DNA of 64,000 nucleotides from Verrucomicrobiota bacterium. Its GTDB lineage: Bacteria > Verrucomicrobiota > Verrucomicrobiia > Limisphaerales > UBA8199. Shown piece after piece: positions 15,320-33,413 of this stretch. The notes under the pieces were generated by a model, which had not been told where the DNA came from, made no database searches, and saw only the letters and a list, made by a program, of their open reading frames with translations. The stretch covers positions 14,300 to 78,299 of the forward strand of contig DAOPPX010000003.1 in NCBI GenBank assembly GCA_035358715.1, read 5' to 3'. Position 1 is the first letter of the stretch, and each line of letters opens with the position of its first letter. The translations under genes were made by a program, and so were the position numbers.

Positions 15320-15396
15320 GCGCGAGTAGCTCAATTGGATAGAGCGTCGGCCTCCGGAGCCGAAGGTTGAGAGTTCGACCCTCTCCTCGCGTACCA
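15320..15396 (+). tRNA. tRNA-Arg(CCG)
   Basis: gcgcgag acceptor stem, D arm gctc/gagc, anticodon arm tcggc-ctCCGga-gccga, T arm gagag-ttcgacc-ctctc, encoded CCA. Confidence 0.97.
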
Positions 15397-16095: not shown

Positions 16096-16755
16096 ATGCA
16101 GACAAAATCATTACTCGGAGTTCTCACCATCACGGCGGCACTTGCGATGCAGGCTCACGCCCAAACCAATACTCTCATCGCTACTTTGACGATGCAGTTC
16201 ACAAGTGCGCAAAACTTGACAACTCCGGTTTTGCCGCTTGGGGGAAGTTACTTTTTTCTCGTGACCGGCCGTTACGGCGTTGGCCCCGGTGACAGAGGCG
16301 AGGCTATGTCCGATGCTGCTTACAACACAATTATTACGAGCACTCTTGACCAAACCCACAATCCCGGTCACCATTGGCAGTGGAACGGAACATACACGAA
16401 CCGCCCCAATCCCGACGCTTATCAAACCAACCATGTTTATCGCTTTGATTTCACAGGCCGAGGAGCGGCAGAGGTACTCGCGTTTACTGACCCGGTTTAC
16501 GGGGATAACGTTGGAACGCTCACCTTTCAGTTGTATCAATTAGGGCCATTGGTGAACTTAATTAAAGCTGTCAAACCGTCGTTCAGCAATCTCACTCTCA
16601 CCACAAATTACCAGTTGCAGGTTTCCGCCGACCTGAATACGTGGACCAACCAAGGCTCACCGTTCACCGCCACCAACACGAGCATGGTTTATCCGCAATA
16701 CTGGGACGTGGACAATTGGAACCAGCTTTTCTTCCGGCTCCAAGTGACTCCGTAA
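16096..16755 (+). CDS. Secreted protein with C-terminal verrucomicrobial-type domain
   Basis: Signal peptide (LLGVLTITAALAMQAHA); ends NYQLQVSADLNTW...LFFRLQVTP. Confidence 0.75.
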   Translation: MQTKSLLGVLTITAALAMQAHAQTNTLIATLTMQFTSAQNLTTPVLPLGGSYFFLVTGRYGVGPGDRGEAMSDAAYNTIITSTLDQTHNPGHHWQWNGTYTNRPNPDAYQTNHVYRFDFTGRGAAEVLAFTDPVYGDNVGTLTFQLYQLGPLVNLIKAVKPSFSNLTLTTNYQLQVSADLNTWTNQGSPFTATNTSMVYPQYWDVDNWNQLFFRLQVTP

Positions 16756-16785: not shown

Positions 16786-16818
16786 CCCCATCCGCTTTCG
16801 TAGCCGGTGGGGTTTTTC
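16786..16818 (+). terminator. Rho-independent terminator (probable)
   Basis: GC-rich hairpin cccca...tgggg followed by ttttt, downstream of 16096-16755. Confidence 0.55.
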
Positions 16819-17014
16819 ATTTCCCGCATTCCTTCTCACCAAGCGCCCGTTGGCACTGGTCCCCATTTCCCACGATGCGTCCGGTTCTGTCTCTGGTGAT
16901 GTTTTCGGTTGCGTGGTAAATCGCCACGATGCGTCCGGTGCCGTCGCGGAGGGTGTTTCGGTCAACGCGGGCGATTATACGTCCCTCACGATTTCTCAGG
17001 AAATTATCGCTCAT
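16817..17014 (-). CDS. Small hypothetical protein with (R/L)DxxGRIV repeats
   Basis: 65 aa with three 'GRI(I/V)' repeats; follows the resolvase on the same strand. Confidence 0.55.
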   Translation of the reverse strand: MSDNFLRNREGRIIARVDRNTLRDGTGRIVAIYHATENITRDRTGRIVGNGDQCQRALGEKECGK

Positions 17015-17020: not shown

Positions 17021-17692
17021 TCAAGCGGTTTGGGTTTTCAGGATGTTGCGGACGGTCGCCGGATACCATTGCCCGCCGTTGCGGGTGGCAATCCCCCGCC
17101 TGTTCAAGCAATCACAAATCCCCCGAAGGGTCTGAACGCCCGCCGACTTGATTTCCTGAATGATGGGAAACACCTTGGCGGCAAAGTCAGCCTTGGCGGT
17201 CTTGTTCGCCACGGCCATTGCGGCCACAGCCTTTTGGGGATTGGGTGTTCCCAATTGTTTGCCGGTGGCTTTGAGGGCGGCCAACGCTTTTGTCGTTCGT
17301 TCGCTAATCAGTTCACGCTCCCGTTGCGCCAGCAAAGCCAGAACCCCTATCGTAAAGCGGTCACACCCCGCAGCGTCGCACGCGATGAAATCCGCTCCGC
17401 TGTTTTGGAGGCGTAGCAAAAACTCAGCATTTCGCGCCAGCCTGTCCAGTTTAGCGATTACCACCGTGCCCTTGGATTTCTTGGCGTATTCCAGTGCCGC
17501 CGCCAGTTGGGGGCGTTCATCTGATGTTTTCTTGCCGGTTTCCACTTCGGAAAACTCCATAGCCAAGACCCCGCCTTGGCTTTCAACAAACCGCCGAACC
17601 GTCTCTTTCTGTGCCGCCATACCATTGCCGTCCAGCCCTTGCATTTTTGTGCTCACTCTGTAATAGCCGATGTAGATTTTCATTATGGACAA
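17021..17692 (-). CDS. Serine recombinase (resolvase/invertase family)
   Basis: YYRVST (catalytic Ser), ERPQLAAAL, VIAKLDRLAR, ERELISERT; C-terminal 'LNRRGIATRNGGQW' DNA-binding part. Confidence 0.93.
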   Translation of the reverse strand: MSIMKIYIGYYRVSTKMQGLDGNGMAAQKETVRRFVESQGGVLAMEFSEVETGKKTSDERPQLAAALEYAKKSKGTVVIAKLDRLARNAEFLLRLQNSGADFIACDAAGCDRFTIGVLALLAQRERELISERTTKALAALKATGKQLGTPNPQKAVAAMAVANKTAKADFAAKVFPIIQEIKSAGVQTLRGICDCLNRRGIATRNGGQWYPATVRNILKTQTA

Positions 17693-19791: not shown

Positions 19792-19821
19792 TGTTTACCT
19801 CTGTGGTGGCATAATGGAGGG
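19792..19821 (+). repeat. Left arm of 30-bp inverted repeat flanking polymerase-like gene
   Basis: tgtttacctctgtggtggcataatggaggg; 29/30 match to reverse complement of 21228-21257. Confidence 0.9.
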
Positions 19822-19862: not shown

Positions 19863-21206
19863 TCACCTGACCACCACGGCAACACCGAACTGCCGAACAG
19901 CGTTTTGTTGGATGAATGCCTTGACCTTGTCGAGTTTGCCCGTGATGTCGTGGTCATCCCGTTCCGCGAACACGCCAACTCCATCATACTCGTAAGCCAA
20001 TGTCAGCCCCAGACCATCAGCAAAGCCGTAAAGGGCTGGGTCGAGCATCAACGGCCCTTCGTATTCTTCCGTGATGAGCCTGCCAGTGATACGTCGGTCC
20101 TCCATCGCGGTCCATACTCTGGCCATCTCCGGAAATCGTCTTTGGAACCACGCCTCCAACCTTCGGTTGTCCGTCCGGTTGGTTCGGCCATCGGTCCTCC
20201 GTTTGTATTGTCTCGCACCATTCAGCCACGAGTTGAGGCAGTCCTTGAAATCTGCTCTTGGCGTGGTGATACCGGCTTCCCTGACAATCGCGTCCCGCGG
20301 GTCTGTATCGTGGTCGGTGAAAAGGCCGGTCCATTCCCGATGCTCCCTTTCCAAGTCAACCCGGTTGACCGCCACGCCGAGTTTCGCGTCAATGGCCGCG
20401 GCTTCGTTGGTATAGAACTCCCACAGCAATCGGCCAAGGAAAGTCGGGTGACAGGCTCGGACGTCCAAGGTCGCGACGTAGGGCCTGCCACGGAAAAGAG
20501 CGAACTGCCGGTATTTACTGGAGAGGCCAACGAACTCGTGATAGATGCGGCCTTCCTTAATCTCTAAGTTACCAAAATCCCGCCTCACGATGGCCAGCAG
20601 ATGGTGAAGGGCGGAGTTGAAACGTCCCGGCTCCTCCCGTTCGTCTCGCCGTAGTTGTGCGAGCACCGCATCCACGTCGAACTCCACCGAGCGATTGAAG
20701 CCGTCAATGATTTGCTTGATTGGCTCCTCGTAAGCCTTCAGCGTCATCTTACGCTTGGAAATGGCCACCTGATTTCGTCGCCGGGTTTGCGGGTCCTTCA
20801 GCAAATGGTAGAGCCACTGAAAGATGCCACCGGTCACCAGCCTGCGGCCCACGTCCGTAATTGCGAAGTTGCGGCATTCGCCCTCTGCGAACGCGTTTGC
20901 TGGTGGCCGATACGGAGTGAAGGTGAGCAAGCCAAGGTCCCTGAGAGCGTCGCGGTAATGCGTGTGCGAGTGCCGGAATGACCGAAACCGGCTTTCGATG
21001 TCCCTGTAGTCCCAAGTCACGGGCTTGCCATCGTTCCGTTCCACTGCGGCGTCAATCGCTCGTAGCCAGTATTGAGCTGTGTTGATGGCCTCCGGCTTCG
21101 CTTGGAAGAGAGGATGCTTGATGAGCAGGTCAAAGAGGTCCTTGCTTACCTTGACCCTGTCCCAAACGCGATAAGGTGAGTTGTCTGGTGCTTGACCATT
21201 AGCCAT
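19863..21206 (-). CDS. wHTH + minimal PolA/T7-RNAP-superfamily (TV-Pol-like) putative replication protein
   Basis: GRIYH pre-motif, motif A-like VATLDVRACHP, motif B-like RADFKDCLNSWLNG, 'WFQRRFPEM', motif C-like LAYEYDGVGV; N-terminal wHTH-like segment. Family assignment is by motif order only. Confidence 0.6.
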   Translation of the reverse strand: MANGQAPDNSPYRVWDRVKVSKDLFDLLIKHPLFQAKPEAINTAQYWLRAIDAAVERNDGKPVTWDYRDIESRFRSFRHSHTHYRDALRDLGLLTFTPYRPPANAFAEGECRNFAITDVGRRLVTGGIFQWLYHLLKDPQTRRRNQVAISKRKMTLKAYEEPIKQIIDGFNRSVEFDVDAVLAQLRRDEREEPGRFNSALHHLLAIVRRDFGNLEIKEGRIYHEFVGLSSKYRQFALFRGRPYVATLDVRACHPTFLGRLLWEFYTNEAAAIDAKLGVAVNRVDLEREHREWTGLFTDHDTDPRDAIVREAGITTPRADFKDCLNSWLNGARQYKRRTDGRTNRTDNRRLEAWFQRRFPEMARVWTAMEDRRITGRLITEEYEGPLMLDPALYGFADGLGLTLAYEYDGVGVFAERDDHDITGKLDKVKAFIQQNAVRQFGVAVVVR

Positions 21207-21227: not shown

Positions 21228-21257
21228 CCCTCCATTATGCCACCACAAAGGTAAACA
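21228..21257 (-). repeat. Right arm of 30-bp inverted repeat (promoter position of polymerase-like gene)
   Basis: ccctccattatgccaccacaaaggtaaaca; on the minus strand contains TGGCATAAT (extended -10-like) about 25-30 nt before the start codon. Confidence 0.88.
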
Positions 21258-21320: not shown

Positions 21321-21725
21321 TTACGCTGCGGCCTTCATCCCGTATTTGCCATCGGCCAACGCGAACACTGCCTTGGCTCCGGTGGACTTCTTCTTCAGTA
21401 CGTTCTTGATTTTCCACGACGTGAAGGCATCGCCGACTGCCGCAATGATTTCGTCAGCCGTCAGCGGCTTACCCTTGGCAGTGAGCACTTCGGCAATCTT
21501 GGTCTCAGCCTTTGGCTTCATCGGTTGCGGCTTCCACTCCGGGTCCAGTTGTCGGACCTCGGCGTCGAGGGCCACCAGTTCCGCCCTCATCTCCGCGTAT
21601 CGGTCTTTAAGGGGCTGGGCCAGAGCGACCCGCTGCTGGTTCAAGGCTTGGATTTTCGCGTTGATGTCGGCCAGTGCCGCTTGGGCGTTTTTGCTTCCAG
21701 TTCGGTCTACTGATATGTTTTTCAT
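21321..21725 (-). CDS. Coiled-coil + winged-helix DNA-binding protein (H-NS/Lsr2-like architecture)
   Basis: MKNISVDRTG... 134 aa: N-terminal heptad helix, Pro-rich linker, Lys-rich wHTH-like C-terminus; paralog at 31716-32126. Confidence 0.7.
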   Translation of the reverse strand: MKNISVDRTGSKNAQAALADINAKIQALNQQRVALAQPLKDRYAEMRAELVALDAEVRQLDPEWKPQPMKPKAETKIAEVLTAKGKPLTADEIIAAVGDAFTSWKIKNVLKKKSTGAKAVFALADGKYGMKAAA

Positions 21726-21793: not shown

Positions 21794-22906
21794 CTAAAAC
21801 GTGAGCCGGTTGGCCATCTTCCGCATATGCTCCCGGTTCAAGTGGCCGTAGGTTTTCCCGATGAGCACGCCGCCATCCTTGTGCCCGACCCACTTGGCGA
21901 TGGTCATATAGTCAATGCCCGTCATCACGCAGGTTGAGATGAAGTAGTGGCGGCACAAATGAAGGGTGAAATCCGGCAACCCCACAACCCGGCGAACCCC
22001 TTCAACCATTTTCTGAAACGACTGAACGGCGGTCTTTGTCCGGTGCGGTTTGCCCAAACGGTATGACGGGAAGAGATACGGAACCCCCTGAATCGCTTTG
22101 GCCTTCATACACAGCAGGTGGTTTTCCAAATTGCGGCTGAAGTCAACGCGACGGCTTTCAAAGTTCTTTGTCGTGTCCCCCTGAAACACCAATTGCCGGT
22201 TTTGCCAATCCACATTTTCCCATTTCAGATTCGCCACTTCGGATTTACGCCCACCTGTGAACATTAAAAGCAGGAGGAAGTCGGCAAACTGTTCCCCTGT
22301 AATGGGGTGGTTTCGCAGGGCTTCGGTTCCAATCCTGAGAAGGTCATCCGTCGAGAACAACCTTCGCTCTACGGACTTCACCTTTAACGGCGTGATACCG
22401 TCGAACGGCAGCTTCTGGATGTATCTTTCCGTTCTCGCCAGCTTCAACACCGCCCGAAGGGCTTTGACGTGATGATTGGCCGTAGTCGGCGACAACCCCC
22501 TTTCGAGCATCTTCCCGCGATAGGAGAGGATTTGACGCGACGTGATTTTGCTGATTTTCATGTCCGCCCCCAAAAACTTTTCCCAGTGCTTCAGGCAATT
22601 GTCTTCACGAATCGCCGACACCTTGGACCTGCCCGACACCTTCCGGTAATGCTCACGGAACGTTTTGAAATCCGGCGCTGAACGCGTGCTGGCGATTTCT
22701 CCGTCCTTGATTCCCTTCAACACGTCATACATCGCTTTGACGGCTTCCGTTCGGCTGGCTGCGCCGTTCAACCGGATGCGGTTGTTCCTTTTGATTCCGG
22801 TTTCAGGGTCAACCACCATCGCCTGAACGTAGAAGGAGCCGTTTCGCTGCCACAGCCCGCGGACCCTTCGGCGTGAACCGTCGAATACCTTTTGGAATGA
22901 CTTCAC
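21794..22906 (-). CDS. Tyrosine integrase (element 1)
   Basis: TGGRKSE (R), TTKN (K), HLCRH (HxxR), WVGHKDGG...KTYGH (H, Y); adjacent to att. Confidence 0.96.
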   Translation of the reverse strand: MKSFQKVFDGSRRRVRGLWQRNGSFYVQAMVVDPETGIKRNNRIRLNGAASRTEAVKAMYDVLKGIKDGEIASTRSAPDFKTFREHYRKVSGRSKVSAIREDNCLKHWEKFLGADMKISKITSRQILSYRGKMLERGLSPTTANHHVKALRAVLKLARTERYIQKLPFDGITPLKVKSVERRLFSTDDLLRIGTEALRNHPITGEQFADFLLLLMFTGGRKSEVANLKWENVDWQNRQLVFQGDTTKNFESRRVDFSRNLENHLLCMKAKAIQGVPYLFPSYRLGKPHRTKTAVQSFQKMVEGVRRVVGLPDFTLHLCRHYFISTCVMTGIDYMTIAKWVGHKDGGVLIGKTYGHLNREHMRKMANRLTF

Positions 22907-23014: not shown

Positions 23015-23060
23015 CCTCCGGAGCCGAAGGTTGAGAGTTCGACCCTCTCCTCGCGTACCA
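23015..23060 (+). repeat. att duplication of tRNA-Arg 3' half (internal att)
   Basis: cctccggagccgaaggttgagagttcgaccctctcctcgcgtacca, identical to 15351-15396; no tRNA 5' half upstream. Confidence 0.95.
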
Positions 23061-23238
23061 TCTTTTTGGCGGCTTTATTGAGGTTTTCAGCGGAATTAAG
23101 GAATCAGAGGAGGGTTTTTCGCCGGCTTTGTTGGCCACTTTGTTGGCTTTTTTTCTTGTTTGGGACTGTTGGTTTCGGTAGATTTCAGGTGGTTGCAATC
23201 GGACCGAAAACTGATCACCAACACGGAAAAGAGGAATT

Positions 23239-25446
23239 ATGCACCTTGAAATGCGAACCGAAGCCAACGGAGACGTGCGCCGAATTTGGTATGGGCGGTT
23301 CATGGTCAATGGCAGGCGCGAGTGCGTGAACCTCGGCGTCAAGATGACGGGGACGCCCCCGGCGTCGGGGCGGCTGCGGGACCGCGGGGACGCGGCGTTC
23401 GAGCAGTCGCGGGGGGCGGCGGCGCTGCGGCTGAAACAGGTGGCAGCCGAGGCGCGAACCGTGCGGGACTCGGCGCGGCTGGTCGAGAGGTTATACGCTC
23501 TCAAGACGGGCAAAGAGGTGCGGGAGGTGAAGCTGTCGGAGCTGGAGACAGAGTGGGCCGGGCTGGCGCGCCGACGGGCGCTCGCGGACAAGTACGCGCG
23601 GGAAGGGCGGAAGACGTTGGGGCGGCTGGTGGCGTTCGTGCGGTCGCGCAATCGGCGAGCAACGGACCTGGCGCACGCGGACCCGGAGACCGTGGCCGCA
23701 TTCATGCAGGCCGAGAAGGATCGGGGGGTTAGCGGACGGACGTGGAACAAGAAGCTGAAGCTGCTGCGGTCGGCATTCAGACATTTGTTGCCGAGCGGCG
23801 CGCCTAATCCGTTCGACCGGCTGGTGACGCGGGAGGAGGCAATGGTGTTCCGGCAGCCGTTCACGGCGGCAGAATTGAGGGCCATCCTGGAAGCCGCGAA
23901 GGACGACGATTTTATCCGGCCAATCATTGTGACGGGCATGTGCACGGCCATGCGCCGGGGCGATTGCTGCCTGCTCAAGTGGAAGGACGTGGACTTGCGG
24001 GGCGGGTTCGTGACGGTCAAGACGGCGAAGACGGGCGGGACGGTGAGCATCCCGATTTTTGGCCGGCTGCGGGATGAACTCGCGAAGAGGGCGGAGAAGG
24101 CGGCTAAAAAGCTGAAAACTGGAAAGCTGAAGGCTGAAATCAGGGGGCCGGGGGTTGGTGAGGGAGCGGCTCGCTCGGAGAGCAAGGCCTATCACGGAGA
24201 GGGCTTCGTGTTCCCTGAGGCGGCAGCGATGTATCGTTCGAATCCTGACGGCATCACGCGGCGGGTGAAACAGGTGCTGTGGGCGGCCTTAGCGGGCGGG
24301 GGGGCTCCGGCGCGCAAAGGGGTGGAGGTGCCGGCCGAGGAGGTGCGGCGGCGTGGCGAGGCTTACCTGGCCGGGCTGCCCGCGGGAGAGCGCACGGAGC
24401 GCCTGGTGCGGGTGTTCGGCCTTTACATGGACGGGGGCAGCGTGGATCAGGTTGCCAAGGCCGCCGGCGTGAGCCAGAGTTCCGTTTCGGTTTATCTGAA
24501 TGAGATCGCGGCGGCGATCGGGTGCGGGGTGGTGCGGTGGCAGGCTGGCGCGGGCAGCGTGGCCAGGGCTCTGAAGGCGGACGATTCGGTGTTGCGCTCG
24601 GCGCGAGCGGGCGGGCTGAGGCGCGCCAGTGTGCGGGACTTCCACAGTCTGCGCGTGACCTGGGTGACGCTGGCTTTGTCGGCGGGTGTGCCGTTGGAAC
24701 TGGTGCAGCGGGTGCGCGCAGCGATCAGGCATTCCCGCTTCGGCAGCGACTCGGACACGTACAAAGACAAGTTTCTCAACTGGTGGATGGGGCTTGAGTT
24801 TTTGGCACACGTCAGCCAGGGCGAGAACATCGGACGAACAGTCGCAATCCATGCGAGCGATGCGTTGCTGCAACGATATCTTTATCGGCTGGTCAGCGAT
24901 CTGGTGAGGACGCTCAAGGGGCAGCAGATCACCTGGGACGCGGATTTTGCAACGGCATCGGGGGCGGCAACGCTGAATGACTTGGAATACCCTGCCGCGC
25001 TCAAGTTGCTGCAAACGCCAGCGGCGGCAACGAAGCTGGCCGCCAGTTTTGGGGACAATCCGGTCGCCGGCCTTCGGATTGCCCGCCTAGCGACGGCCCT
25101 TCAAGACCCCAAGAAAACGGCTGATCTTCTGGCTGCGCATCATCGGCATTTGCTGTGGCAGCTTAGCAGGCTGTACCGGATCCGATGCTGCATCGTCCAC
25201 GGCTCCCAGGTCCGGTTCAAACTGCCTTTATTCGCCGCGAATGTGGAATTCTACTTAAAGGAGCTCATAACCGTTTGCTTGCGGGCGCTCACATTGAATC
25301 CCCACGTTGCTTCGTTGCGGGAGGTCTTCCAGCGCGCGGCGTTCGCCCGTCAGCGAGTGGACGGCGAACTGCGGGCAACCCCGCCGAATCCGGACGCCAT
25401 CCGTAACGCCGTCTTCAACTCGGTCATAATCCAAGAGAATCCCTGA
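23239..25446 (+). pseudogene. In-frame chimera: truncated Tyr integrase (to ~24714) fused to HEPN-domain protein C-terminus
   Basis: MRRGD, VKTAKT, DFHSLRVTW, GVPLELVQRV, then an abrupt switch where the 'GH...Y' should follow. The C-terminus has NWWMGLEFL and the R-x4-H motif RCCIVH. ctttgttggc direct repeats (23126, 23138) upstream resemble arm sites. Confidence 0.75.
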
Positions 25447-25454
25447 GCAACGCC

Positions 25455-26744
25455 ATGACCGATAAACCAAGATTGATTGAGGTCGCCTTTCCGCTGAAGC
25501 AGGCGTCGCTGACGAGCGTGCATGAGAAAAATGTGCGGCATGGGCACATCTCGACGCTGCACATCTGGCCAGCGCGACGGCCACTGGCGGCGTGCCGGGC
25601 GGCGCTGCTCTGCACGCTGTTGCCTGATCCGGGCGACGCGCAGAAGCGGCAGGAACTGCTCGACATGATTGGCGGGAAGGTGGTGAACCGCGTCGTCCCG
25701 TCGGAGGACGAAGAGGGCAACGCGGTTTCTGAGGAAAAGGAAACGGTAGAGGGTGGCGTCCTGGCGTGGGGCAATGAGAATGCAGCGGAGATGGATATCT
25801 TGCGCGCGGCCATCAAGGAGTTCTACGCCGGCAGCGCCCCTAAGGTGCTGGACCCGTTTGCGGGCGGCGGTGCTATTCCGTTGGAGGCGATGCGGCTGGG
25901 GTGCGAGGTTACGTCGGCAGACCTGAATCCGGTGGCGTGGTTCATCCAGAAATGCACGCTGGATTACCCGCAGCGATTCGCGGGAAAGAAATGGCCGCTG
26001 CCGGGGTTCGTGCGCGAGTGGCCGGATTTTGTGGAGGATTTCATCGCGGGCAAGATGAAGAAGCGGAAGGGCGAGCAGAAACCGCATTTCACGGATGCAA
26101 AGCAGATTCAACTATTGGCGCTAGAGGATGCGGACCTGGCGTGGCATGTGCGTGCCTGGGGGCGCTGGGTGTTGGAGCGAGCGCGACAGGACCTGGCGGC
26201 ACGCTACCCGATGGCGGACGGCGAACCGACCGTAGCTTACCTGTGGGCGCGCACCGCACGCGACCCGCAAACGACCGGACGGATCCCGCTACTCAAGACG
26301 TTTTGGCTTGGGAAGAAGAAGGGCAAGCGCGCCGCGTTGCTTCCCGTGCCGAAGGCCGACGGCTCGGGCGTGACTTTCAAGCTCCTGCGTGAAGCAGACC
26401 TGGCGCAACCACAACGTGTGGTAGAACAACATGAGTTCTTACAGCGGTGGGAGGTGACCGGAGAAACGCTGGAAGACTTTTTGAATGACGGGACGATGAA
26501 CCGCGCCGGCGTGTGGAGTCCTTGTGGTGGGCGCCCCGGGATCATTGCGCTTACCACGAAGGATGACCTGCCGCGCCAAGGCAACCAGCGTTTGCTGGGC
26601 ACGCAAATGGTCGCCGTTGTCGTAGAGCGGAAAGAGCCGAACCGGAAGAGGCCTACAAAGGTGTACAGGTTGCCCAACGAGCAGGAGATCTCGGCGGCAG
26701 TGGTGGCCGAGCAACCTGAAGACGGAACTGCCGCGCGTGATTGA
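25455..26744 (+). pseudogene. DUF1156 adenine DNA methyltransferase, C-terminally truncated
   Basis: RLIEVAFPL, TLHIWPARRPLAACRA, VLDPFAGGGAIPLEAMRLG, YLWART; ends before the catalytic DPPY-type region. Confidence 0.85.
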
Positions 26745-28704
26745 CGCGCAGAAGGCAGCGGCCGGGACGTTGAACGGGCGGGAGGTGGAGGCGGCGTGCG
26801 TGGCGGCATTCATCTACTCGCAACCGATCGGGGAGCAGGCGGAGGTAGGGGATTTGCGGTGGCTGGTGGGGCCGACGTGCGACCTGCCGGCGGTGTTCAA
26901 CAACGGGCTGATCGCCTGGGCGAACAGCTCGTGGTATTTGGAGGAAACGGACGCGACGGAGCCGACGACGAATGTTCCGAAGTATTGGCGGCTGGGACCG
27001 AAACCCAACCTCAACCAGGTCCACCACAGTTACAAGATCAAGGCCCTGAGCGTGGCCAGGAGCAAGTTCGATGAATTGGCGAAGAAATGCACCCCGCTCA
27101 AAGAGGGGTGTGACCAAGAGGGGATCAAGTTCCACAATCATCCGCCCTCGCCGGCGGACGTAGAGGATGACGGTCTGTTTCGGCTGGTGGTGCTGGGGGC
27201 GGATCATGCCGGACAGCCGGGGATGAAACCGTTGGCAAGCGCGGAAGCGTACTTGCGGACGCACTCGTCGCCGACGGACAACCGCACTTGTCAGAACGTG
27301 GTGCTCGTGGTGACGCCCAGCGTGGGCGGATTGCAGCAGGCGGAACAGCAAGTGGCCGAGTGGCTGGCGTGGCAAGAAATCAAGGGCTCGAAAGATTTCA
27401 AGGATTACGAAGCGCACGTAAAGGAGATGGTGAACAAGCGCGAGCGCTTGGCGAAGCAGGCGGCGGAAACGGCGGTGAAGAACGCCTTCGAGCTGGCGCT
27501 GCACGTAGACAAGACCGGGGCGGTACAGGTTAAGAAATTTACGATGGGGGCACAGGCGTTGTTCCCGACCCTGCTACAAGAAAAAGACCTTCGGCTGTTC
27601 AAGGAGAAGATTGACGCCGAGACGATCATGCCGGGCGGGCCGTACGCCGTTTGGCCAGCGACAGATGACCGCGTACAGGTGAGCGCGCTTTACCAACAAT
27701 TTGCCAGGCGGCCTAACTTGCCGAAGCTGTTAAGCCAACAGACCGTGACGAACACGATTGCCGATGCGGTGCAGCGCGGGGTGCTGGCATTGCGTCACGT
27801 GCGGCCGGACGGATCGGAGCAGTGGTTTTGGCGGTCGAAGATAGACGTGGCGGACTGGGAAAAGACGGGCGAGGCGTGTTTGCCGAAGAAAGCGGCGCTG
27901 AACAGCGTTAGCGCGAAAGCGGTGCTGCCGGAAGCGCTGCCAGGGTTATGGCCAGCGGAGCCGAATGGGGTGGAATTGGCGACGGTGTGCTCCTGGTTCG
28001 ACGGGGCGCATGCCTTTCAGGAGGTAACGCAACCGGGGTATCCGGCAGAGGCGCGCGCCATTCCGCAGGCGGCCGTGGCTGAGGTCCACAAGGCCGTGGC
28101 CCAGGCCGTTAAGACGGGGGACCTGTGGCTGGTGTTCGGCAATGACAGCGTGTGGCAGGAAGAGCCGACAGCCATTCAACTGGATGCGAAAGCGAAAGTG
28201 TTTCGGCGTCCGGCACCGCTGAGCGCCATCGAGTTGCTGCCGGGCGCGCTGAAGGATGCCTGGAGTACGGGGGCGGAGCCAAAGACGACGGTGGCGACGC
28301 TTTACGCCGAACTGAAAAAGGCGAGAGGCAATCCGTGGCCGCCAAAGGCATTTATCAGCACGCTGAGCGATGCGCTGGGGCGCGGACTGGTGCAGCGAGT
28401 TTCGGGCAGCGGTCCGCTCGTGTCGCTGGCCGCGGATGGGAAGGTGGAGCTGGCGGTCAAGGCGAGCGCGCCGGCGCCGGCACCCCAGCCTGGTGCCGCA
28501 CCTGGCCGCAGGATGTCGCCGCGAGTGACGCTGTCACCGGCGGAGTTCCAGAACCTGGCAGACGAGGTGGCGACGCTGAGCACGTCACTGGCTGGATGTG
28601 ACGTGCAACTTGAGGTGGCGGTGTCCATCAAGGCGAAGCCCGATACAAAGCTGGATGAGGCGAACAAGCTCCTGGAGAAGATCAAGGCGGGATGGAAGCT
28701 CTGA
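26701..28704 (+). pseudogene. DUF499 ATPase, C-terminal part only
   Basis: Frame opens at WWPSNLKTELPRV...; 'AAFIYSQP', 'SWYLE', 'WRLGPKPNLNQ', 'FRLVVLG' typical of DUF499 C-halves; no Walker motifs present. Confidence 0.7.
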
Positions 28705-28746
28705 AGAGCGGGCGATGAAACGGTCAGTTCATTCTCAGGAGGAAAC

Positions 28747-29169
28747 ATGAGCGATTCGGTCGCAATGGCACTGGACGCATTTGTGCGTTCGATCTCGATT
28801 AACCGGGACACGCCGCACAGTTTGTTGCTTGGGGCCGGCGCCTCGGTCAGCTCGGGGATACCTTCCGCCGAACGGTGCATTATGGAGTGGAAGGGCCGGA
28901 TGTTCACGACTGCCAACCCGGGATTGGAGAAGGAGGTGGGACACCTGTTCCTGCCGTCGGTGCAGCGGCGGATTCAGACATGGCTCGACAGGCAGGCGGG
29001 GTTTCCGGCGGCCGGCGCGGCAACGGAATACAGTTTTTACTGCGAACGTTGCTACCCGCTGGCAGATGATCGCCGAGCCTATTTCCAGAGCCTGGTGAAG
29101 GCGGGGAAACCGGGCTATGGCTATCGGCTGCTGGCGTTGCTGGCTGAGGCCGGTGTTTTCGACTCGGTC
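28747..29169 (+). pseudogene. SIR2-like (SIR2_2) NADase domain, truncated
   Basis: LLLGAGASVSSGIPSA, YSFYCERCYP..DDRRAYF, PGYGYRLLALLAEAGVFDSV; breaks just before the expected WTTNFD motif. Confidence 0.85.
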
Positions 29170-30545
29170 TCATCCCGCACAAGCGGACTGGTGGTGGCGG
29201 CAGCAATCAGTTTGCCTCCGTTGAAATTGTACCCAAAGGGTTGTGTGGGGACGATGGTTGACGCAATGGCGATATGGTTCAGTTTACCGTCTTCCTTCTG
29301 TTCCTTGGTCCACCCGATGAAATCATCACGAGGCCCCAACGCAGGGAAGTCTCCGCTGATGGCCCCGATGCCTAGCACCGGCTTTTCTGGTTGGCTGGCG
29401 TCAACCACGAAAAACTTTATGTATCGTCCGGGTGTCTGATAGTTGACCGCAGAGGAAATAAAGTGCCGATAGACGCTCCACAGCAGATGACCCGCCTTGT
29501 CTTTGACAATGAGAATCTCAGGAGAAAGCCGTTCGATGGCCGCGATTGTATCCTGCTCGTTTTCCAAGTCAGCCGGTGCCCAAACGTTGCTTTCCGCCGC
29601 CACAATTAAATCGGGGTCGGCAACTTTGGTATCCACCAATTGATAATACTTTTGAGCAAACGTATAGTCTCTGACCGAAAGGGATTTCAGCTCAGTGAGG
29701 TTTTCAACGAGCGCCTGTGTCTCCAGCGCGATGTCCATCGTGGGTTTGTTTTGTGCGTGATGGGCAACGCACTCCTCGCACCAGTCAAGACGACCTGAGT
29801 ATTCGGGCATATCAGGGTAGATTGACAGAAAGACATCGTCCGGTCCTTTGACACGGCCACAACGAACGCAGGCGAGTTGCATGGGGTCCAAGCCGAAATA
29901 GCTCAACACGTCATTCAACGCATACTGCCACTTGTCCAATAGAATTGGCAGGGGCGCGAGGCCCGTGTCGAAGCAATCAAAGAGGGCGTTTTCCAACTCG
30001 GGCGATGCCTTCGCAAGGCTCCTGTATAGGCTCTGGGAGCCAGCAAAATTGTTTCTTAGTTTCTTGAGGATGGTTTCCGTGGTGTCGCCTTCCACGGGTT
30101 CACTTTGCTTTGTGGTGGGCTTCTCGTCGGGGTTCTTGTCTAGGTGCCCGGCCTTAAGGGAACCCGTGACGATGTATGCCTGCCGGAGGCTTGTGGCCTC
30201 ATTCAAATTCTTCACATGTTCAGATTTTGCGAGCTTCATGTAGCGTTCAGCGGTGGTGTCAGATATGGCCTCACAGTTCTGTTTCAGCCACTTCAACCAG
30301 TTGCCGTGGCCGACCGCATCTTTGGCGTGGTTAAGGTATTGGCCGGCTTTGATGGCGGCAGCGATTGCCTCCCGCCCCTGTTTCTTTGATAGTCGGTCGG
30401 CCAGCTTAACGGCTTGATGAGCGTCCAAAATGGCCTTGGCGTATTCCTCCAAGGTTTTGGGGGGGGCAATGGTAACGGTGGACGGTGTGGTGGGTTCGGC
30501 CACCGGTGCAAATGCGGTATCGTTGGTTATTGTGTTCAGTGTCAT
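29170..30545 (-). CDS. DUF3102 + Zn-finger + DUF4338 (DruA-like) fusion, C-terminally truncated
   Basis: AGQYLNHAKDAVGHGNWLKWL...TAERYMKLA (DUF3102); CVRC...CEEC; TPGRYIKFFVVD, GPRDDFIGW, KLNHIAIASTIVPTQPFGYNFNGGKL (DUF4338). ORF track extends to 29121 across the junction. Confidence 0.75.
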
Positions 30546-30729
30546 ATATGGTAGTGAGTTTTGGTTTTAGTTTTTTCCCTCATTGTATCGGCTCTCCCAA
30601 GAGGACGGGTGTGCCAGCGCCGCATTTCGCAAATGGCCTAATTTCAGTGGATTCATAAGGGTGAGGCTTAGCGGAGAATGATTACCTTTCCGGTGGTTGG
30701 CAGGGGGCACATCGGATAAACTGCGCTGG

Positions 30730-31701
30730 ATGAATGCGTTCGGAAAGCCCTACGACCTGCCCTATGACGATTGGGACCAAGAGAAGGTGGGGCCGGGTTT
30801 TTACCGCTTGCTCGCAGAGCACCCCGTTTTCAATCGCGAGAAAAAGGCCATCAGCGCCGCCCATTCGTGGCTGAACGAAATTGCCGCCGGCCAACACGCT
30901 AACGAAGGCAGAAACGTGACGGTCGGCTACAAGACCATTCAGGACCACTTCCGAAAGTTTTCCCAATCGCACGCCGCCTTCATTCGAGCTCTCAGTCAGT
31001 ATCGTCTGGTCGACATCAGCAAAGTCGAGAGAAGGACCCGCTCGTTCGCACTGACGGAAGCCGGATGGCGACTCTTACAAGAGGGAAACTATCGTTGGCT
31101 TCATTTGCTGCTAACGGACCCAAAAACGCGCAGGCGGAATCAGGTGGCAATCGCCAGACGAAAGCTGAGGCGCACCACCTACGCCGACCCGACACGGCGA
31201 GCGATTGAGGAATTCCGGCACAACGTGACGTTCGACCGAGCCGGACTCCTTAAACAGTTGCGGGTGGACAACTCACGGGTAGGGAGGACCGCCGATATGC
31301 GGCGCAATTTCGTTATCCACCCGCTGCTCGCCTTCGCGACACGCAAGTTTTGTGAACTAAAAGAAAGGCGTGGCGCCATCTACCATGAGTGGTTTTCCCT
31401 CCCTTGGCACTTCCGGCGCTTCGCTTCGTTCAAGGGGAGGCAATACATCATGCCCTTGGAATGTCCGAAAGAGCAGTTGTGCCAGTTCTGCCCAGCCCTA
31501 TGCGCCTACGGAGAGAGCTTGGGGTTGGCGCTCGTTTACGATTACGAAAGCGTGAGCGTGTTTGGTGACATGAACGACTCGAAATTGCTGAACAAGTTAA
31601 GGCGGGTCAAAGCGTTTATTCGGCACCAAACCTGCGAAACCAGCGCCCAAGCCAAGAACCATGACTGCTTGGAGAACCCCGGCGAATTGCCGGGGTCGTG
31701 A
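30730..31701 (+). CDS. Degenerate paralog of the polymerase-like protein (palm largely deleted)
   Basis: Shares WLxxLLxDPxTRRRNQVAIxxRK, GxIYHE and KLxxVKAFI with 19863-21206. Motif A TLD becomes PLE, motif C YDG becomes YES, and the region between them is mostly missing. Confidence 0.75.
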   Translation: MNAFGKPYDLPYDDWDQEKVGPGFYRLLAEHPVFNREKKAISAAHSWLNEIAAGQHANEGRNVTVGYKTIQDHFRKFSQSHAAFIRALSQYRLVDISKVERRTRSFALTEAGWRLLQEGNYRWLHLLLTDPKTRRRNQVAIARRKLRRTTYADPTRRAIEEFRHNVTFDRAGLLKQLRVDNSRVGRTADMRRNFVIHPLLAFATRKFCELKERRGAIYHEWFSLPWHFRRFASFKGRQYIMPLECPKEQLCQFCPALCAYGESLGLALVYDYESVSVFGDMNDSKLLNKLRRVKAFIRHQTCETSAQAKNHDCLENPGELPGS

Positions 31702-31715
31702 CTGTCAGACGGTGA

Positions 31716-32126
31716 TTACGCCACCGCCCGAACGACGTATTTGCCATCGGCGAAGGTAAACACCGCCTTGGCCCCCTGTGACCGCTTCTTCAGGGTGTTC
31801 TTCACCTTCCAGGGGGTGAAGGCATCGCCCACGGCGGCGATGATAGCGTCAACGTCCATCGGTTGCCGGTTCGCGCTGAGGATTTCCGTAATCCGGGTTT
31901 CGGCCTTGGGCTTCATCGGCTCCGGCTTCCAAGTGGGGTCCAGTTCGGCGATTTGGGATGCCATCTGAACCACCTCGGCCCGCAGTTCAGCGTAGCGAAC
32001 CTTGAGGGGTTCAGCCAAGGTGACCCGCTGCTTCGTCAGCGCCTCAATTTGGGCGTTGATTTCAGCGAGCGCGGATTGAGCGTTCTTGTTTCCGGTTCCA
32101 GTTCGATTTTGTGATGTAGGTTTCAT
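31716..32126 (-). CDS. Coiled-coil + winged-helix DNA-binding protein (copy 2)
   Basis: Closely similar to 21321-21725 (KNAQ.ALA.INA.I.AL..QRV.LA.PLK.RYAE.RAE; WKP.PMKPKAET). Confidence 0.72.
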   Translation of the reverse strand: MKPTSQNRTGTGNKNAQSALAEINAQIEALTKQRVTLAEPLKVRYAELRAEVVQMASQIAELDPTWKPEPMKPKAETRITEILSANRQPMDVDAIIAAVGDAFTPWKVKNTLKKRSQGAKAVFTFADGKYVVRAVA

Positions 32127-32192
32127 TGTGCTCCTGGGCTACTTCAGAAAAGCGACACCGGCAAGCGATGGGCGCGCGAGATTTCGCTGCGG

Positions 32193-33305
32193 CTAAAACG
32201 TGAGCTTACTTGCCATCTTCTGCATGTGCTCGCGGTTCAAATGCCCGTAGGTTTTACCAATCAGCACACCGCCGTCCTTGTGGCCAACCCACTTGGCGAT
32301 TGTCATGTAGTCAATGCCCGCCATCACGCAGGTTGAGATGAAATAGTGACGGGTTAGGTGAAGGGTGAAGTCCGGTAAGCCCACGGCACGGCGAACGGAT
32401 TCGACCATTTTCTGGAAGGACTGAACGGCAATGCGTGTTCGATGGGGTTTTCCCAAGCGATAAGACGGGAACAGATAGGCCACCCCTTGAAGGGCTTTGG
32501 CCTTCATGCACAGCAGGTGGTTTTCGAGGTTGCGGCTGAAGTCAACACGACGGCTCTCAAAGTTTTTTGTCGTGTCCCCTTGGAACACGAGTTGCCTATT
32601 TTGCCAGTCAACGTTTTCCCATTTCAGATTCGCCACTTCTGATTTGCGCCCACCCGAATACATGCACAGCAGCAGAAAATCTGCGAACTGCTCGCCGGTT
32701 ATTGGGTGGTTCCGCAGAGCATCGGTCCCAATTTTCAGAAGGTCCTCAGTACAGAACAACTTCCGCTCCACGGATTTGACCTTGAGGGGCGTGATGCCAT
32801 CGAACGGCAGCTTCTGAATGTATTTTTCCGTTCTCGCCAACTTCAGCACCGCCCGCAAAGCCTTGACGTGATGATTGGCCGTGCTCGCCGACAGCCCCCG
32901 TGCGAGCATTTGGCCGCGATACGCGAGAATCTGCCGCGGATTGATTTTGCTGATTCGCATGTTGGCTCCCAGAAACTTTTCCCAGTGCTTCAGGCAATTG
33001 TCCTCACGAATCGCCGACACCTTGGACCTGCCCGACACCTTCCGGTAATGCTCGCGGAACGTTTTGAAATCCGGCGCTGACCGCGTGCTGGCGATTTCTC
33101 CGTCCTTGATTCCTTTCAGCACACCATACATGGCCTTGATGGCCTCCGTTTGGCTGGTTGCCCCAGTCAGCCGGATGCGGTTGTTCTTTTTGATTCCGGT
33201 TTCAGCGTCAACCACCATCGCCTGAACGTAGAAGGAGCCGTTCCGCTGCCACAACCCGCGTATTCGTCGGCCTGAGCGGTCGAATACCTTTCGGAAGGAA
33301 TTCAC
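32193..33305 (-). CDS. Tyrosine integrase (element 3)
   Basis: 370 aa, same length as and closely similar to 21794-22906; catalytic R, K, HxxR, H, Y all present. Confidence 0.96.
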   Translation of the reverse strand: MNSFRKVFDRSGRRIRGLWQRNGSFYVQAMVVDAETGIKKNNRIRLTGATSQTEAIKAMYGVLKGIKDGEIASTRSAPDFKTFREHYRKVSGRSKVSAIREDNCLKHWEKFLGANMRISKINPRQILAYRGQMLARGLSASTANHHVKALRAVLKLARTEKYIQKLPFDGITPLKVKSVERKLFCTEDLLKIGTDALRNHPITGEQFADFLLLCMYSGGRKSEVANLKWENVDWQNRQLVFQGDTTKNFESRRVDFSRNLENHLLCMKAKALQGVAYLFPSYRLGKPHRTRIAVQSFQKMVESVRRAVGLPDFTLHLTRHYFISTCVMAGIDYMTIAKWVGHKDGGVLIGKTYGHLNREHMQKMASKLTF

Positions 33306-33311
33306 CGTCCA

Positions 33312-33332: not shown

Positions 33333-33413
33333 ACAGGCGAGCGTCAGGAAGGAAAGACGGGGATGCTATTGGCCGGGAATACTTTGTGGCAGATTGGTTT
33401 TATCGTCGGGCCT

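What the first reader, a model, noticed from the sequence alone, without database searches (positions are those of the whole stretch)
19863..21206. Compact wHTH + PolA-superfamily palm protein as the likely replicase/primase of a small integrative element
Seen: motifs occur in PolA order (GRIYH; TLDVRACHP; RADFKDCLNSWLNG; FQRRFPEM; AYEYDGVGV) in only 447 aa, with no exonuclease or helicase domain. Established: family A DNA polymerases and T7-like RNAPs share motifs A/B/C, and TV-Pol is a mobile-element branch predicted to prime or replicate. Inference: this is the only replication-like gene in a 7.7-kb element with no capsid, relaxase or helicase, suggesting an undescribed satellite/IME replication strategy.
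Basis: partly seen in the sequence, partly recalled or inferred. Interest (0 to 1): 0.75.

Follow-up and report, generated by a model that had tools for sequence, protein, structure and literature searches.

The report
Minimal polymerase-like gene of integrative island
A 447-residue protein with no database annotation folds as a DNA-binding winged helix joined to a stripped-down family-A polymerase, and it is probably the replication-starting enzyme of a small family of tRNA-inserted mobile islands in Verrucomicrobiota.

Summary
The ORF (19863-21206, minus strand, 447 aa) and its five motifs are real. Across 138 homologous core domains, R220, D248, K321, N329, E383 and D408 are 99-100% conserved.

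- **Sequence searches:** Pfam, NCBIfam, PHROGs, PADLOC, PDB sequences and hhalign against PolI all give nothing.
[quoted passage not shown] The N-terminal 165 residues match MarR-type winged helices.
- **Island:** The gene lies in a 7,664-bp island between perfect 46-bp repeats at tRNA-Arg(CCG).
- **Conserved module:** In eight independent related elements the order is integrase, coiled-coil/wHTH gene, this gene, serine resolvase. No helicase, SSB, capsid or relaxase was found.
- **Circular relative:** A 36%-identical relative sits on a 6.3-kb contig that assembles as a circle.
- **Conserved box:** A near-invariant 32-bp box flanks the gene in two copies and occurs nowhere else in the genome.

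The most likely role is a site-specific primase-polymerase that starts replication of the excised island. It resembles the predicted TV-Pol elements and the proven CcPol-MP primase, but it is a new, unannotated variant. No activity has been tested.

The parts
19863..21206 (-). Gene for the 447-aa wHTH + minimal PolA-like protein (P0001)
   Evidence: ORF and translation. The exhaustive profile search returned 265 proteins at E<=1e-3 from the library of 50%-identity cluster representatives. AF2 model pLDDT 89.2. Foldseek hits are only PolA or T7-like polymerases.
20727..21101 (-). N-terminal MarR-like winged-helix domain (about aa 36-160)
   Evidence: DSSP shows H40-57, E63-66, H67-74, H81-90, wing E94-99/E111-116, H118-137 and H139-160. 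Nearly all of the top 50 Foldseek PDB hits are MarR-family regulators, plus the replication terminator RTP (E 4e-3 to 7e-2, probability up to 1.0).
20583..20723 (-). Two-helix hairpin (aa 162-208), the thumb-like element
   Evidence: DSSP shows H162-173, H178-191 and H193-208 immediately before the Arg hairpin. The assignment as thumb is inferred from its position.
19866..20582 (-). Palm + fingers core (aa 209-447): R220 hairpin, D248 (motif A), K321...N329-G330 (motif B-like helix), W353/P359 (WF..FPEM), E383, D408 (motif C)
   Evidence: The topology is beta(241-249), helices 252-398, beta hairpin 402-405/409-413, helix 421-440, then a last strand. Conservation is 99-100% in 138 sequences; motif C reads H-D-G in 32 sequences and has D-E in 6.
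21228..21257 (-). Upstream copy of the conserved 32-bp box TGTTTACCTTTGTGGTGGCATAATGGAGGG, ending 21 nt before the ATG and pointing into the gene
   Evidence: The same box lies upstream of the homologous gene in L016, L018, L019, L021, L022, L025, L026 and L037.
19792..19821 (+). Downstream, inverted copy of the box (29 of 30 identical), starting 42 nt after the stop codon and pointing back into the gene
   Evidence: These are the only two copies in the 5.5-Mb genome. The same inverted arrangement occurs in L025; the pair is in direct orientation in L018, L021, L022, L026 and L037.
21321..21725 (-). Conserved 134-aa coiled-coil + probable wHTH gene between the integrase and polymerase-like genes
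   Evidence: tblastn finds 43-67% identity in L016-L019, L021 and L022. Only weak wHTH-type Pfam hits fall at residues 120-156 of the 190-aa ORF as scanned, which is about residues 64-100 of this 134-aa product. A paralog lies at 31716..32126.
21794..22906 (-). Tyrosine integrase (370 aa) next to attR
   Evidence: PF00589 E 6.9e-15 and phrog_1 E 3e-49.
17021..17692 (-). Small serine recombinase (resolvase/invertase type, 223 aa), a conserved partner of the polymerase-like gene
   Evidence: PF00239 E 1.6e-25. It lies downstream of the polymerase-like gene, at 39-74% identity where measured by tblastn, in L016/17, L018, L019, L021, L022, L037-39 and L040-42.
15320..15396 (+). tRNA-Arg(CCG); its 3' 46 nt (15351-15396) form attL
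   Evidence: ARAGORN and Rfam; repeat family D3.
23015..23060 (+). attR, a perfect 46-bp copy of the tRNA 3' end. A third copy, 91% identical, at 33414-33459 closes a second, decayed island
30730..31701 (+). Degraded paralog in island 2. Its N-terminal 247 aa are 38% identical, the region from motif A to the fingers (about aa 250-389) is missing, both Asp positions read Glu, and it is inverted relative to its integrase

Best explanation
The gene encodes a catalytically competent, minimal member of the family-A (PolA/T7-like) polymerase superfamily fused to an N-terminal MarR-like winged-helix DNA-binding domain. It is the replication-initiating enzyme of a 7.7-kb island integrated at tRNA-Arg(CCG).

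Proposed course (steps 2-4 are inferred):
1. The tyrosine integrase excises the island as a circle through the 46-bp att repeats.
2. The winged helix docks the protein on an element-specific DNA site. The best candidate is the near-invariant 32-bp box that flanks the gene.
3. The polymerase core uses D248 and D408 as metal ligands, K321 on the O-helix equivalent, and R220 on the template hairpin. It makes or extends a short primer that host replication proteins take over, because the island carries no helicase or SSB.
4. The linked serine resolvase resolves multimers.

Shown here: the fold, residue conservation, the conserved gene module, the element boundaries, and a circularly assembled relative. 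Not shown: any enzymatic activity, binding to the box, or replication of the island.
For: - **Fold:** The AF2 model has pLDDT 89.2 and pTM 0.82. All 50 top PDB Foldseek hits are A-family DNA polymerases (T7, Taq, Klenow, apicoplast Pol, DpoZ) with probability up to 1.0. The BFVD top hit is a 403-aa 'putative DNA polymerase I' at E 1.5e-9 and TM 0.60/0.65; nearly every named BFVD hit among the first 45 is a DNA polymerase or a T7-like RNA polymerase.
- **Topology:** The secondary-structure order is that of a PolA palm with fingers inserted after strand 1. D248 ends strand 241-249 and D408 sits in the 402-413 hairpin turn.
- **Conservation:** R220, D248, K321, N329, E383 and D408 are 99-100% conserved in 138 homologs. 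Distant members read H-D-G, or have D-E, at motif C, as in PolA's HDE.
- **Asp spacing:** The Asp-Asp spacing is 160 aa, against 155 in CcPol (D169/D324, PMC7581432).
- **N-terminal domain:** It matches MarR-like wHTH proteins.
- **Module:** The order ccwHTH, pol-like gene, resolvase, with a tyrosine integrase wherever the upstream flank was captured, recurs in eight independent related elements. The integrases are swapped (85% or 26% identity) and the att sites differ: L019 and L022 are bracketed by tRNA-Leu(GAG).
- **Distant members:** They sit beside tyrosine or large serine recombinases, where temperate elements keep their replication gene, and no helicase is present.
- **Circular relative:** L034 is a MEGAHIT k141 contig with an exact 141-bp terminal overlap. 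That implies a 6,346-bp circle carrying only an integrase, the polymerase-like gene and small ORFs.
- **Box:** The 32-bp box is nearly identical between elements whose proteins are only 55-60% identical. It has only two copies in the genome, both flanking the gene.
- **Distribution:** The family matched in only 2 of 201 sampled genomes of the phylum, counting the window's own genome, as expected for a mobile gene.
- **Decayed copy:** The decayed neighbouring island carries a copy that has lost exactly the catalytic core.
Against: - No sequence-based method links the family to PolA. Pfam (68 members scanned), NCBIfam, PHROGs and PDB profile searches are all empty.
- hhalign against PolI polymerase domains is not significant (E 0.2).
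- PDB Foldseek E-values are marginal (best 2.6e-3) and global TM-scores are low (0.2-0.4).
- The O-helix Tyr that is universal in PolA and T7 RNA polymerase is an invariant Asn here (N329). The Arg of the RxxxK motif is K or R in only 67 of 138 sequences.
- No helicase, SSB or recognisable origin accompanies the gene.
- The two-box arrangement is restricted to the close clade and does not generalise to distant subfamilies.
- A circular assembly path could also arise from a tandem array.
Confidence: 0.55

Rival explanations
1. It is a box-specific single-subunit RNA polymerase, or a transcription-type primase like T7 RNA polymerase or mitochondrial POLRMT, rather than a DNA polymerase. The 32-bp box would be its promoter, and the two copies would drive the gene itself and either the next gene or an antisense RNA.
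For: - The box is about 32 bp and almost invariant while the proteins have diverged to 55-60% identity.
- It is unique to the element in the genome.
- Its core is followed by a purine-rich tract (GGAGGGAGA...) in the copies read.
- In L016, L021 and L022 it precedes a roughly 230-nt leader with no ORF, conserved among the three, upstream of the gene.
- It does not fit sigma-70 spacing.
- From memory only, T7-class promoters are about 23 bp and end in TATAGGGAGA.
- T7-like RNA polymerases appear among the Foldseek hits.
- A basic beta-hairpin (aa 333-345) follows the O-helix equivalent, roughly where T7 RNA polymerase carries its specificity loop.
Against: - The best structural matches are DNA polymerases, not RNA polymerases.
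- Position D+5 in motif A is a bulky H, W or Y, where T7-like RNA polymerases have Gly and DNA polymerases a steric-gate Glu (from knowledge).
- In three loci the second box points into the 3' end of the gene.
- Distant subfamilies have no comparable box.
- The box could simply be an operator or origin bound by the coiled-coil/wHTH protein.
Confidence: 0.12
2. It is an active nucleotidyltransferase with a non-replicative job, such as repair or gap filling during integration and excision, synthesis of a defence or signalling polynucleotide, or an anti-phage function. In that case it would be cargo or an accessory of the island.
For: The island and its neighbour carry defence-type cargo, and related loci carry Mom-like, AcrVA2-like and restriction-related genes. 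No helicase or origin is evident. Polymerase-like enzymes are used in defence systems, for example reverse transcriptases.
Against: - The gene belongs to the invariant backbone (integrase, ccwHTH, pol-like gene, resolvase), while the cargo differs between elements.
- There is no PADLOC match.
- The 6.3-kb circular relative has almost nothing else.
- In distant elements the gene sits where the replication gene usually is.
Confidence: 0.15
3. It is a catalytically dead polymerase fold kept as a DNA-binding regulator or initiator that only recruits host enzymes.
For: Some 'Pol' partners in PolA-SSB elements retain little more than an RRM core, and most of those lack the catalytic Asp residues (PMC10061031). 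The window itself holds such a dead copy at 30730-31701. The O-helix Tyr is missing.
Against: Near-total conservation of both Asp residues, the Lys, the Arg and a Glu across 138 divergent sequences points to selection on catalysis.
Confidence: 0.05
4. The 1,466-bp unit bounded by 30-bp inverted repeats is an insertion sequence, and the protein is its transposase.
For: The layout (one ORF between 30-bp terminal inverted repeats) is that of an IS.
Against: - The genome has only two copies of the gene, both in the same three-gene context.
- In five related elements the repeats are direct, not inverted.
- The fold is a polymerase palm, not RNase H-like.
- The conserved acidic residues come in the order D, E, D.
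Confidence: 0.02

Closest known systems
TV-Pol family (Iyer, Abhiman and Aravind 2008, PMC2579912), in particular the subset with an N-terminal extra domain found next to a gamma-delta resolvase or lambda-type integrase
   Same: - It is a minimal PolA-like core: a two-helix thumb, a beta-hairpin with an absolutely conserved Arg, an RRM palm with two Asp, and fingers inserted after strand 1.
- It has no nuclease domain.
- It is about 400-600 aa long.
- It sits in small mobile elements with a resolvase and/or integrase and no helicase.
- TV-Pols were reported in Verrucomicrobia and Planctomycetes.
- A primase-polymerase role was predicted for them.
   Different: - No sequence link could be shown here. 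The family profile finds nothing in Microcystis phage Ma-LMM01, which the paper lists as a TV-Pol carrier, and no reference TV-Pol sequence was available.
- The N-terminal domain here is a MarR-like winged helix, whereas TV-PolN was predicted to be all-helical.
- The RxxxK motif is only half conserved.
- An invariant Asn replaces the O-helix Tyr.
CcPol-MP primase of SCCmec and the PolA-SSB pairs of Bacillota (PMC7581432, PMC10061031)
   Same: - It is a truncated A-family polymerase encoded by an integrative island next to site-specific recombinases.
- CcPol's two catalytic Asp residues are 155 aa apart, against 160 here.
- CcPol-MP is experimentally a dNTP-using primase-polymerase, which gives a working precedent for the mechanism proposed.
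   Different: - CcPol needs the OB-fold protein MP to bind ssDNA and to prime, and it is encoded with a Cch helicase. Neither partner is present here.
- DNA binding is instead supplied in cis by a fused winged helix.
- The hosts are Verrucomicrobiota, not Bacillota.
- A tyrosine integrase and a small resolvase replace the large serine recombinases.
- CcPol keeps the steric-gate Glu and the Phe of PolI; here the position five residues after the motif A Asp (the steric-gate Glu position) is His, Trp or Tyr.
Bacterial DNA polymerase I and phage T7 DNA polymerase (Pfam PF00476)
   Same: They are the best structural matches. The motifs are colinear: GRIY with GRIHT, D248 with motif A, K321...G330 with motif B, WF..FPEM with YF..YPGV, and [YH]-D-G with HDE.
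   Different: The polymerase part is about 285 aa against about 420. There are no exonuclease domains. PF00476 gives no match. The Tyr of motif B is Asn. The genome has its own ordinary polA elsewhere.
Plasmid initiators that are origin-specific primases (ColE2 Rep) and self-priming piPolB of pipolins (from knowledge; piPolB is cited in PMC10061031)
   Same: One element-encoded protein both recognises the replicon and makes the first primer, so no element-encoded helicase is needed.
   Different: Those enzymes use AEP-type or family-B catalytic folds, not a family-A palm.

Membership tests
Family-A (PolA/T7-like) polymerase superfamily | Right-hand fold with an RRM palm and with fingers inserted after palm strand 1 | tested here: met
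   The AF2 model (pLDDT 89.2) gives only PolA polymerases among the top 50 PDB hits. The BFVD top hit has E 1.5e-9 and TM 0.60/0.65. The DSSP order of elements matches.
Family-A (PolA/T7-like) polymerase superfamily | Two catalytic aspartates, one at the end of strand 1 (motif A) and one in the strand 2/3 hairpin (motif C) | tested here: met
   D248 ends strand 241-249 and D408 lies in the turn between strands 402-405 and 409-413. They are conserved in 137/138 and 138/138 sequences. Three-dimensional superposition could not be tested because no coordinates were available.
Family-A (PolA/T7-like) polymerase superfamily | Motif B helix R-x-x-x-K-x-x-x-F/Y-x-x-x-Y-G | tested here: inconclusive
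   K321 is present in 137/138 sequences and G330 in 128/138. The residue at K-4 is K or R in only 67/138. The Tyr position is Asn in 136/138.
Family-A (PolA/T7-like) polymerase superfamily | Significant sequence-profile match to PF00476 or to solved PolA sequences | tested here: not met
   None of 68 members scanned hits PF00476. PDB profile searches are empty. hhalign gives E 0.2.
TV-Pol (PMC2579912) | Thumb made of two antiparallel helices directly before the palm | tested here: inconclusive
   Helices 178-191 and 193-208 precede the Arg hairpin. Their three-dimensional position was not inspected.
TV-Pol (PMC2579912) | Beta-hairpin carrying an absolutely conserved Arg | tested here: met
   R220 is present in 137/138 sequences and lies in a short hairpin at about 216-222.
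TV-Pol (PMC2579912) | No fused or linked nuclease, and a neighbourhood with a D5 helicase or with a resolvase, lambda integrase or transposase | tested here: met
   There is no nuclease domain. A resolvase follows the gene in all eight clade elements (nine counting the window's own island), and a tyrosine integrase is present wherever the upstream flank was captured.
TV-Pol (PMC2579912) | Detectable sequence relationship to reference TV-Pols | tested here: not met
   The A2 profile finds no match at E<=10 in the Ma-LMM01 genome, which the paper names as a carrier. No other reference sequence could be obtained, so this is a weak test.
CcPol-MP / PolA-SSB primases (PMC7581432, PMC10061031) | A small OB-fold SSB partner encoded next to the polymerase | tested here: inconclusive
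   The conserved neighbour is a coiled-coil + wHTH-like protein. The small downstream ORFs (92 and 82 aa) are not conserved in related loci. Their folds were not predicted.
CcPol-MP / PolA-SSB primases (PMC7581432, PMC10061031) | A helicase (Cch or D5-like) in the same operon | tested here: not met
   No helicase domain was found in the island or in the flanks captured for the related loci examined (about 2 to 21 kb of DNA per locus).
T7-like single-subunit RNA polymerases | Promoter-specific initiation with NTPs, an N-terminal promoter-binding domain and a specificity loop | not testable with these tools
   There are only hints: the conserved 32-bp box and a basic hairpin after the O-helix equivalent.

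The most novel reading that the evidence does not exclude
The protein could be a sequence-specific, de novo initiating minimal polymerase. Its fused MarR-like winged helix would read the near-invariant 32-bp box (...GGTGGCATAAT|GGAGGGAGA), and the roughly 285-aa PolA core would start an RNA or DNA chain there. That would make it by far the smallest promoter- or origin-specific relative of T7 RNA polymerase, and a one-protein replication and/or transcription module for a helicase-less integrative element.
Probability: 0.15. Interest if true: 0.85.

Novelty: new variant of a known kind. Interest (0 to 1): 0.62.

Why it matters
Primases have been considered to belong to two folds (DnaG and AEP). 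CcPol-MP is the only demonstrated family-A exception, and no TV-Pol with an N-terminal domain has been characterised.

This family is invisible to every annotation library tried: the exhaustive profile search returned 265 proteins at E<=1e-3 from the library of 50%-identity cluster representatives. It offers a compact, single-chain candidate in which DNA recognition is fused to the polymerase rather than supplied by an SSB and a helicase.

It comes with a candidate recognition site and a naturally small replicon (6.3 to 10.5 kb). That makes three questions directly testable: how small a PolA enzyme can be, how such enzymes begin chains, and how helicase-less integrative islands replicate. It also gives a handle for annotating a class of small tRNA-borne islands in Verrucomicrobiota.

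Tried and rejected
1. Sequence annotation gave nothing significant. I tried Pfam, PHROGs, NCBIfam and PADLOC on the protein, on 68 diverse members and on 10 atypical long members.
2. PDB sequence and profile searches were empty.
3. hhalign against 9-11 PolA polymerase domains taken from this phylum was not significant, for both the whole protein and the core (E 0.2). The GRIY, motif B, FPEM and motif C regions did fall in register, and the only local hit was WF..FPEM against YF..FPGI.
4. I looked for a TV-Pol reference. The paper's supplement is not held as sequences. The A2 profile finds nothing in Ma-LMM01, where PF00476 finds only an ordinary split PolA.
5. tblastn against the phage and plasmid collections and a scan of IMG/VR found no relatives.
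6. A second word-index search with the diverse alignment returned only the same clade.
7. The IS/transposase reading of the 30-bp inverted repeat was rejected. The genome has two copies in a fixed context, and the repeats are direct in other elements.
8. Reading the inverted repeat as an invertase switch could not be tested. The paralog in island 2 is inverted, but the contigs give no sign of polymorphism.
9. The two-box layout does not generalise to distant subfamilies. Only short upstream repeats were found in L034 and L035, and a 61-nt repeat in L020.
I therefore made no read-level test of excision, copy number or inversion.
11. Model coordinates are not exposed, so I made no residue superposition.
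Full report
**Observation.** The ORF at 19863..21206 (minus strand, ATG start, 447 aa) exists as described. The five quoted motifs sit at residues 219-223 (GRIYH), 246-254 (TLDVRACHP), 317-330 (RADFKDCLNSWLNG), 354-361 (FQRRFPEM) and 404-412 (AYEYDGVGV). A word-index search found 42 homologs, all unnamed. An exhaustive profile search of 1.84 billion cluster representatives found 265 at E<=1e-3 and 131 at E<=1e-30. In an alignment of 68 diverse members (down to 20% identity) the invariant residues are R220, D248, K321, N329, E383 and D408. In 138 core domains they are present in 136-138 sequences. Motif C reads [Y/H]-D-G. It has His in 32 sequences and D-E in 6, which is the PolA 'HDE' form.

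**No sequence-level annotation.** Pfam, PHROGs, NCBIfam and PADLOC give nothing for the protein, for 68 members or for 10 atypical long members. PDB sequence and profile searches are empty. hhalign against PolI polymerase domains taken from this phylum is not significant (E 0.2). With a permissive alignment, however, GRIY falls on GRIHT, K..N.G on motif B and YDG on HDE. The one local match is WFQRRFPEM against YFKQFPGI. The family is therefore dark to sequence methods.

**Fold.** AlphaFold2 with 34 homologs gives pLDDT 89.2 and pTM 0.82. Against the PDB, all 50 best Foldseek matches are family-A DNA polymerases (T7, Taq/KlenTaq, Klenow, Bacillus fragment, apicoplast Pol, DpoZ, M. smegmatis Pol1). 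Probabilities reach 1.0, but E-values are marginal (best 2.6e-3) and global TM-scores are low at 0.2-0.4, as expected for a protein lacking two thirds of those enzymes. Against predicted viral structures, the best hits are roughly 400-aa proteins, including a 'putative DNA polymerase I' at E 1.5e-9 and TM 0.60/0.65. Nearly every named hit among the first 45 is a DNA polymerase or a T7-like RNA polymerase.

The secondary-structure order is that of the PolA palm:
- a two-helix hairpin (178-208);
- a short hairpin carrying R220;
- strand 241-249 ending in D248;
- an all-helical insert (252-398) carrying K321/N329/G330, W353/P359 and E383;
- a hairpin (402-405/409-413) with D408 in the turn;
- helix 421-440 and a last strand.

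I could not superimpose residues because coordinates are not exposed. The correspondence of the two aspartates therefore rests on topology and conservation.

**N-terminal domain.** Residues 1-165 were modelled alone from 11 sequences (pLDDT 75.6). They match almost only MarR-family winged-helix regulators, plus the replication terminator RTP (E 4e-3 to 7e-2, probability up to 1.0). The title 'wHTH + PolA palm' is thus right at fold level. The polymerase part occupies only about 285 residues.

**The element.** tRNA-Arg(CCG) lies at 15320-15396. Its last 46 nt recur perfectly at 23015-23060 and at 91% identity at 33414-33459. This defines two tandem islands of 7,664 and 10,399 bp.

Island 1 carries these genes:
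- a tyrosine integrase (21794..22906);
- a 134-aa coiled-coil/wHTH-like gene;
- the polymerase-like gene;
- two small ORFs and a 308-aa ORF with no matches;
- a small serine recombinase (17021..17692);
- a secreted protein.

Nothing resembles a capsid, terminase, relaxase, helicase or SSB.

Island 2 has a second integrase and coiled-coil gene. It also holds an inverted, degraded copy of the polymerase-like gene that lacks residues ~250-389 and reads Glu at both Asp positions. The genome has no other copy.

**Related elements.** Eight independent elements in metagenome or MAG loci share the order ccwHTH, (cargo), polymerase-like gene, (small ORFs), resolvase on one strand. These are L016/17, L018, L019, L021, L022, L037-39 and L040-42. 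A tyrosine integrase precedes the module wherever the upstream flank was captured. The integrase is either 85% or only 26% identical. The L019 and L022 elements are bracketed by duplicated tRNA-Leu(GAG) instead. The backbone is therefore the ccwHTH, polymerase-like gene and resolvase trio, with exchangeable integrases and cargo.

Named carriers are Verrucomicrobiota MAGs. The family matched in only 2 of 201 sampled genomes of the phylum, counting the window's own genome. More distant members (22-36% identity) lie beside tyrosine or large serine recombinases and runs of small ORFs, again without helicases. One lies on a phage-like contig.

L034 is a MEGAHIT k141 contig whose first and last 141 nt are identical. 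That implies a circular path of 6,346 bp (37% GC) encoding only an integrase, an 80-aa protein, the polymerase-like protein and small ORFs. This is the best available hint that such elements exist as small circles, although a tandem array would give the same assembly.

**A conserved box.** The gene is bracketed by a 30-bp inverted repeat, 19792-19821 and 21228-21257, with 29 of 30 positions matching. The chance expectation is 0. These are the only two copies in the 5.5-Mb genome. The same roughly 32-bp sequence, (A)TGTTTACCTTTACGGTGGCATAATGGAGG(G/T)AG, occurs upstream of the homologous gene in L016, L018, L019, L021, L022, L025, L026 and L037. A second copy follows downstream of the gene:
- inverted in the window and L025, and in L016 (right half only);
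- direct in L018, L021, L022, L026 and L037.

The box is almost identical between elements whose proteins are 55-60% identical. Its core is followed by a purine-rich tract in the copies read. In three loci it is separated from the start codon by a roughly 230-nt stretch, conserved among the three, with no ORF. It does not fit sigma-70 spacing, although it contains TGGCATAAT. I read it as a site for an element-encoded protein: a promoter/operator, an origin, or less likely a resolvase site. Distant subfamilies lack it.

**Mechanism.** The best-supported reading is an active minimal PolA-type enzyme that starts replication of the excised island. Its fused winged helix would target it to an element site, host proteins would do the rest, and the resolvase would resolve multimers (confidence 0.55). 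Fold, conservation, gene position, loss of the catalytic core in the decayed island and the circular relative all support this. No activity, binding or replication has been shown.

Rivals:
- a box-specific RNA polymerase or transcription-type primase (0.12);
- a non-replicative nucleotidyltransferase (0.15);
- a dead fold acting as a regulator (0.05);
- an IS transposase (0.02).

**Comparison with known systems.** The closest described kind is the TV-Pol family (PMC2579912). Its subset with an N-terminal domain lies next to resolvases or lambda-type integrases without helicases, and it was seen in Verrucomicrobia. The structural criteria and the context criterion are met, but sequence membership could not be shown.

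The closest characterised enzyme is CcPol-MP of SCCmec (PMC7581432, PMC10061031). It is a truncated PolA that primes with dNTPs, but it needs an OB-fold partner and a helicase that are absent here.

The differences from all PolA enzymes are the fused MarR-like domain, Asn in place of the O-helix Tyr, His/Trp/Tyr at the steric-gate position, and Gly after the motif C Asp with an invariant Glu (E383) on the preceding helix.

**Verdict.** The fold interpretation is supported, and the functional claim is plausible but untested. This is a new, unannotated variant of a known kind and is of moderate to high interest.

Noticed in passing
window 19792-19821 and 21228-21257; L016, L018, L019, L021, L022, L025, L026, L037: A near-invariant 32-bp box (A)TGTTTACCTTTACGGTGGCATAATGGAGG(G/T)AG occurs twice per element, flanking the polymerase-like gene. 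The pair is inverted in some loci and direct in others. It is far better conserved than the proteins and has no other copy in the genome.
   Followed up: partly
L034 (ENA ERZ27247952, k141_5301932), 1-6487: This contig has an exact 141-bp terminal overlap, implying a 6,346-bp circle (37% GC). All called genes are on one strand: an integrase, a 36%-identical relative of the polymerase-like protein, and small ORFs. A 21-nt exact repeat lies at 2741 and 2853, upstream of the polymerase-like gene.
   Followed up: partly
window 23061-33459: A second island at the same tRNA site looks decayed. It holds an integrase-like ORF fused to other sequence (23239..25446), a DUF1156-like methylase start (25455..), a 655-aa ORF and a 474-aa ORF whose sequence looks DUF4338 (DruA)-like by eye. 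It also has a second integrase and coiled-coil gene.
   Followed up: no
window 30730-31701: A paralog of the polymerase-like gene remains an open frame but lacks the catalytic core. Both Asp positions read Glu, and the gene is inverted relative to its integrase. A remnant of the box (TTACCTTTCCGGTGG) lies at 30683-30697.
   Followed up: partly
own genome, contig C1:311928-312938 (L002): A second, weak PF00476 match (58.7 bits) lies inside an 1,156-aa open frame. Its motifs are variant (LDYSAAEV, AKPFTFGIPYQRG, ILHDA). This is a large divergent PolA-like protein, separate from the ordinary polA on contig C215.
   Followed up: no
L019 6520-6604 and 17068-17152; L022 1678-1762 and 11917-12001: Related elements are bracketed by full duplicate tRNA-Leu(GAG) genes and use an integrase only 26% identical to the one here. 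The same backbone has therefore been moved between att sites by integrase exchange.
   Followed up: partly
L020 550-610 and 3514-3574: On a phage-like contig (Mu-type portal) that carries a 28%-identical relative, a 61-nt repeat (98% identical) containing a hairpin and the start codon precedes both the polymerase-like gene and a gene 3 kb downstream.
   Followed up: no
window 16096-16755 and 16817-17014: The C-terminal roughly 75 residues of the secreted 219-aa protein are 70% identical to the end of an unrelated protein in L019. A 65-aa ORF next to the resolvase recurs in L016 and L018.
   Followed up: no
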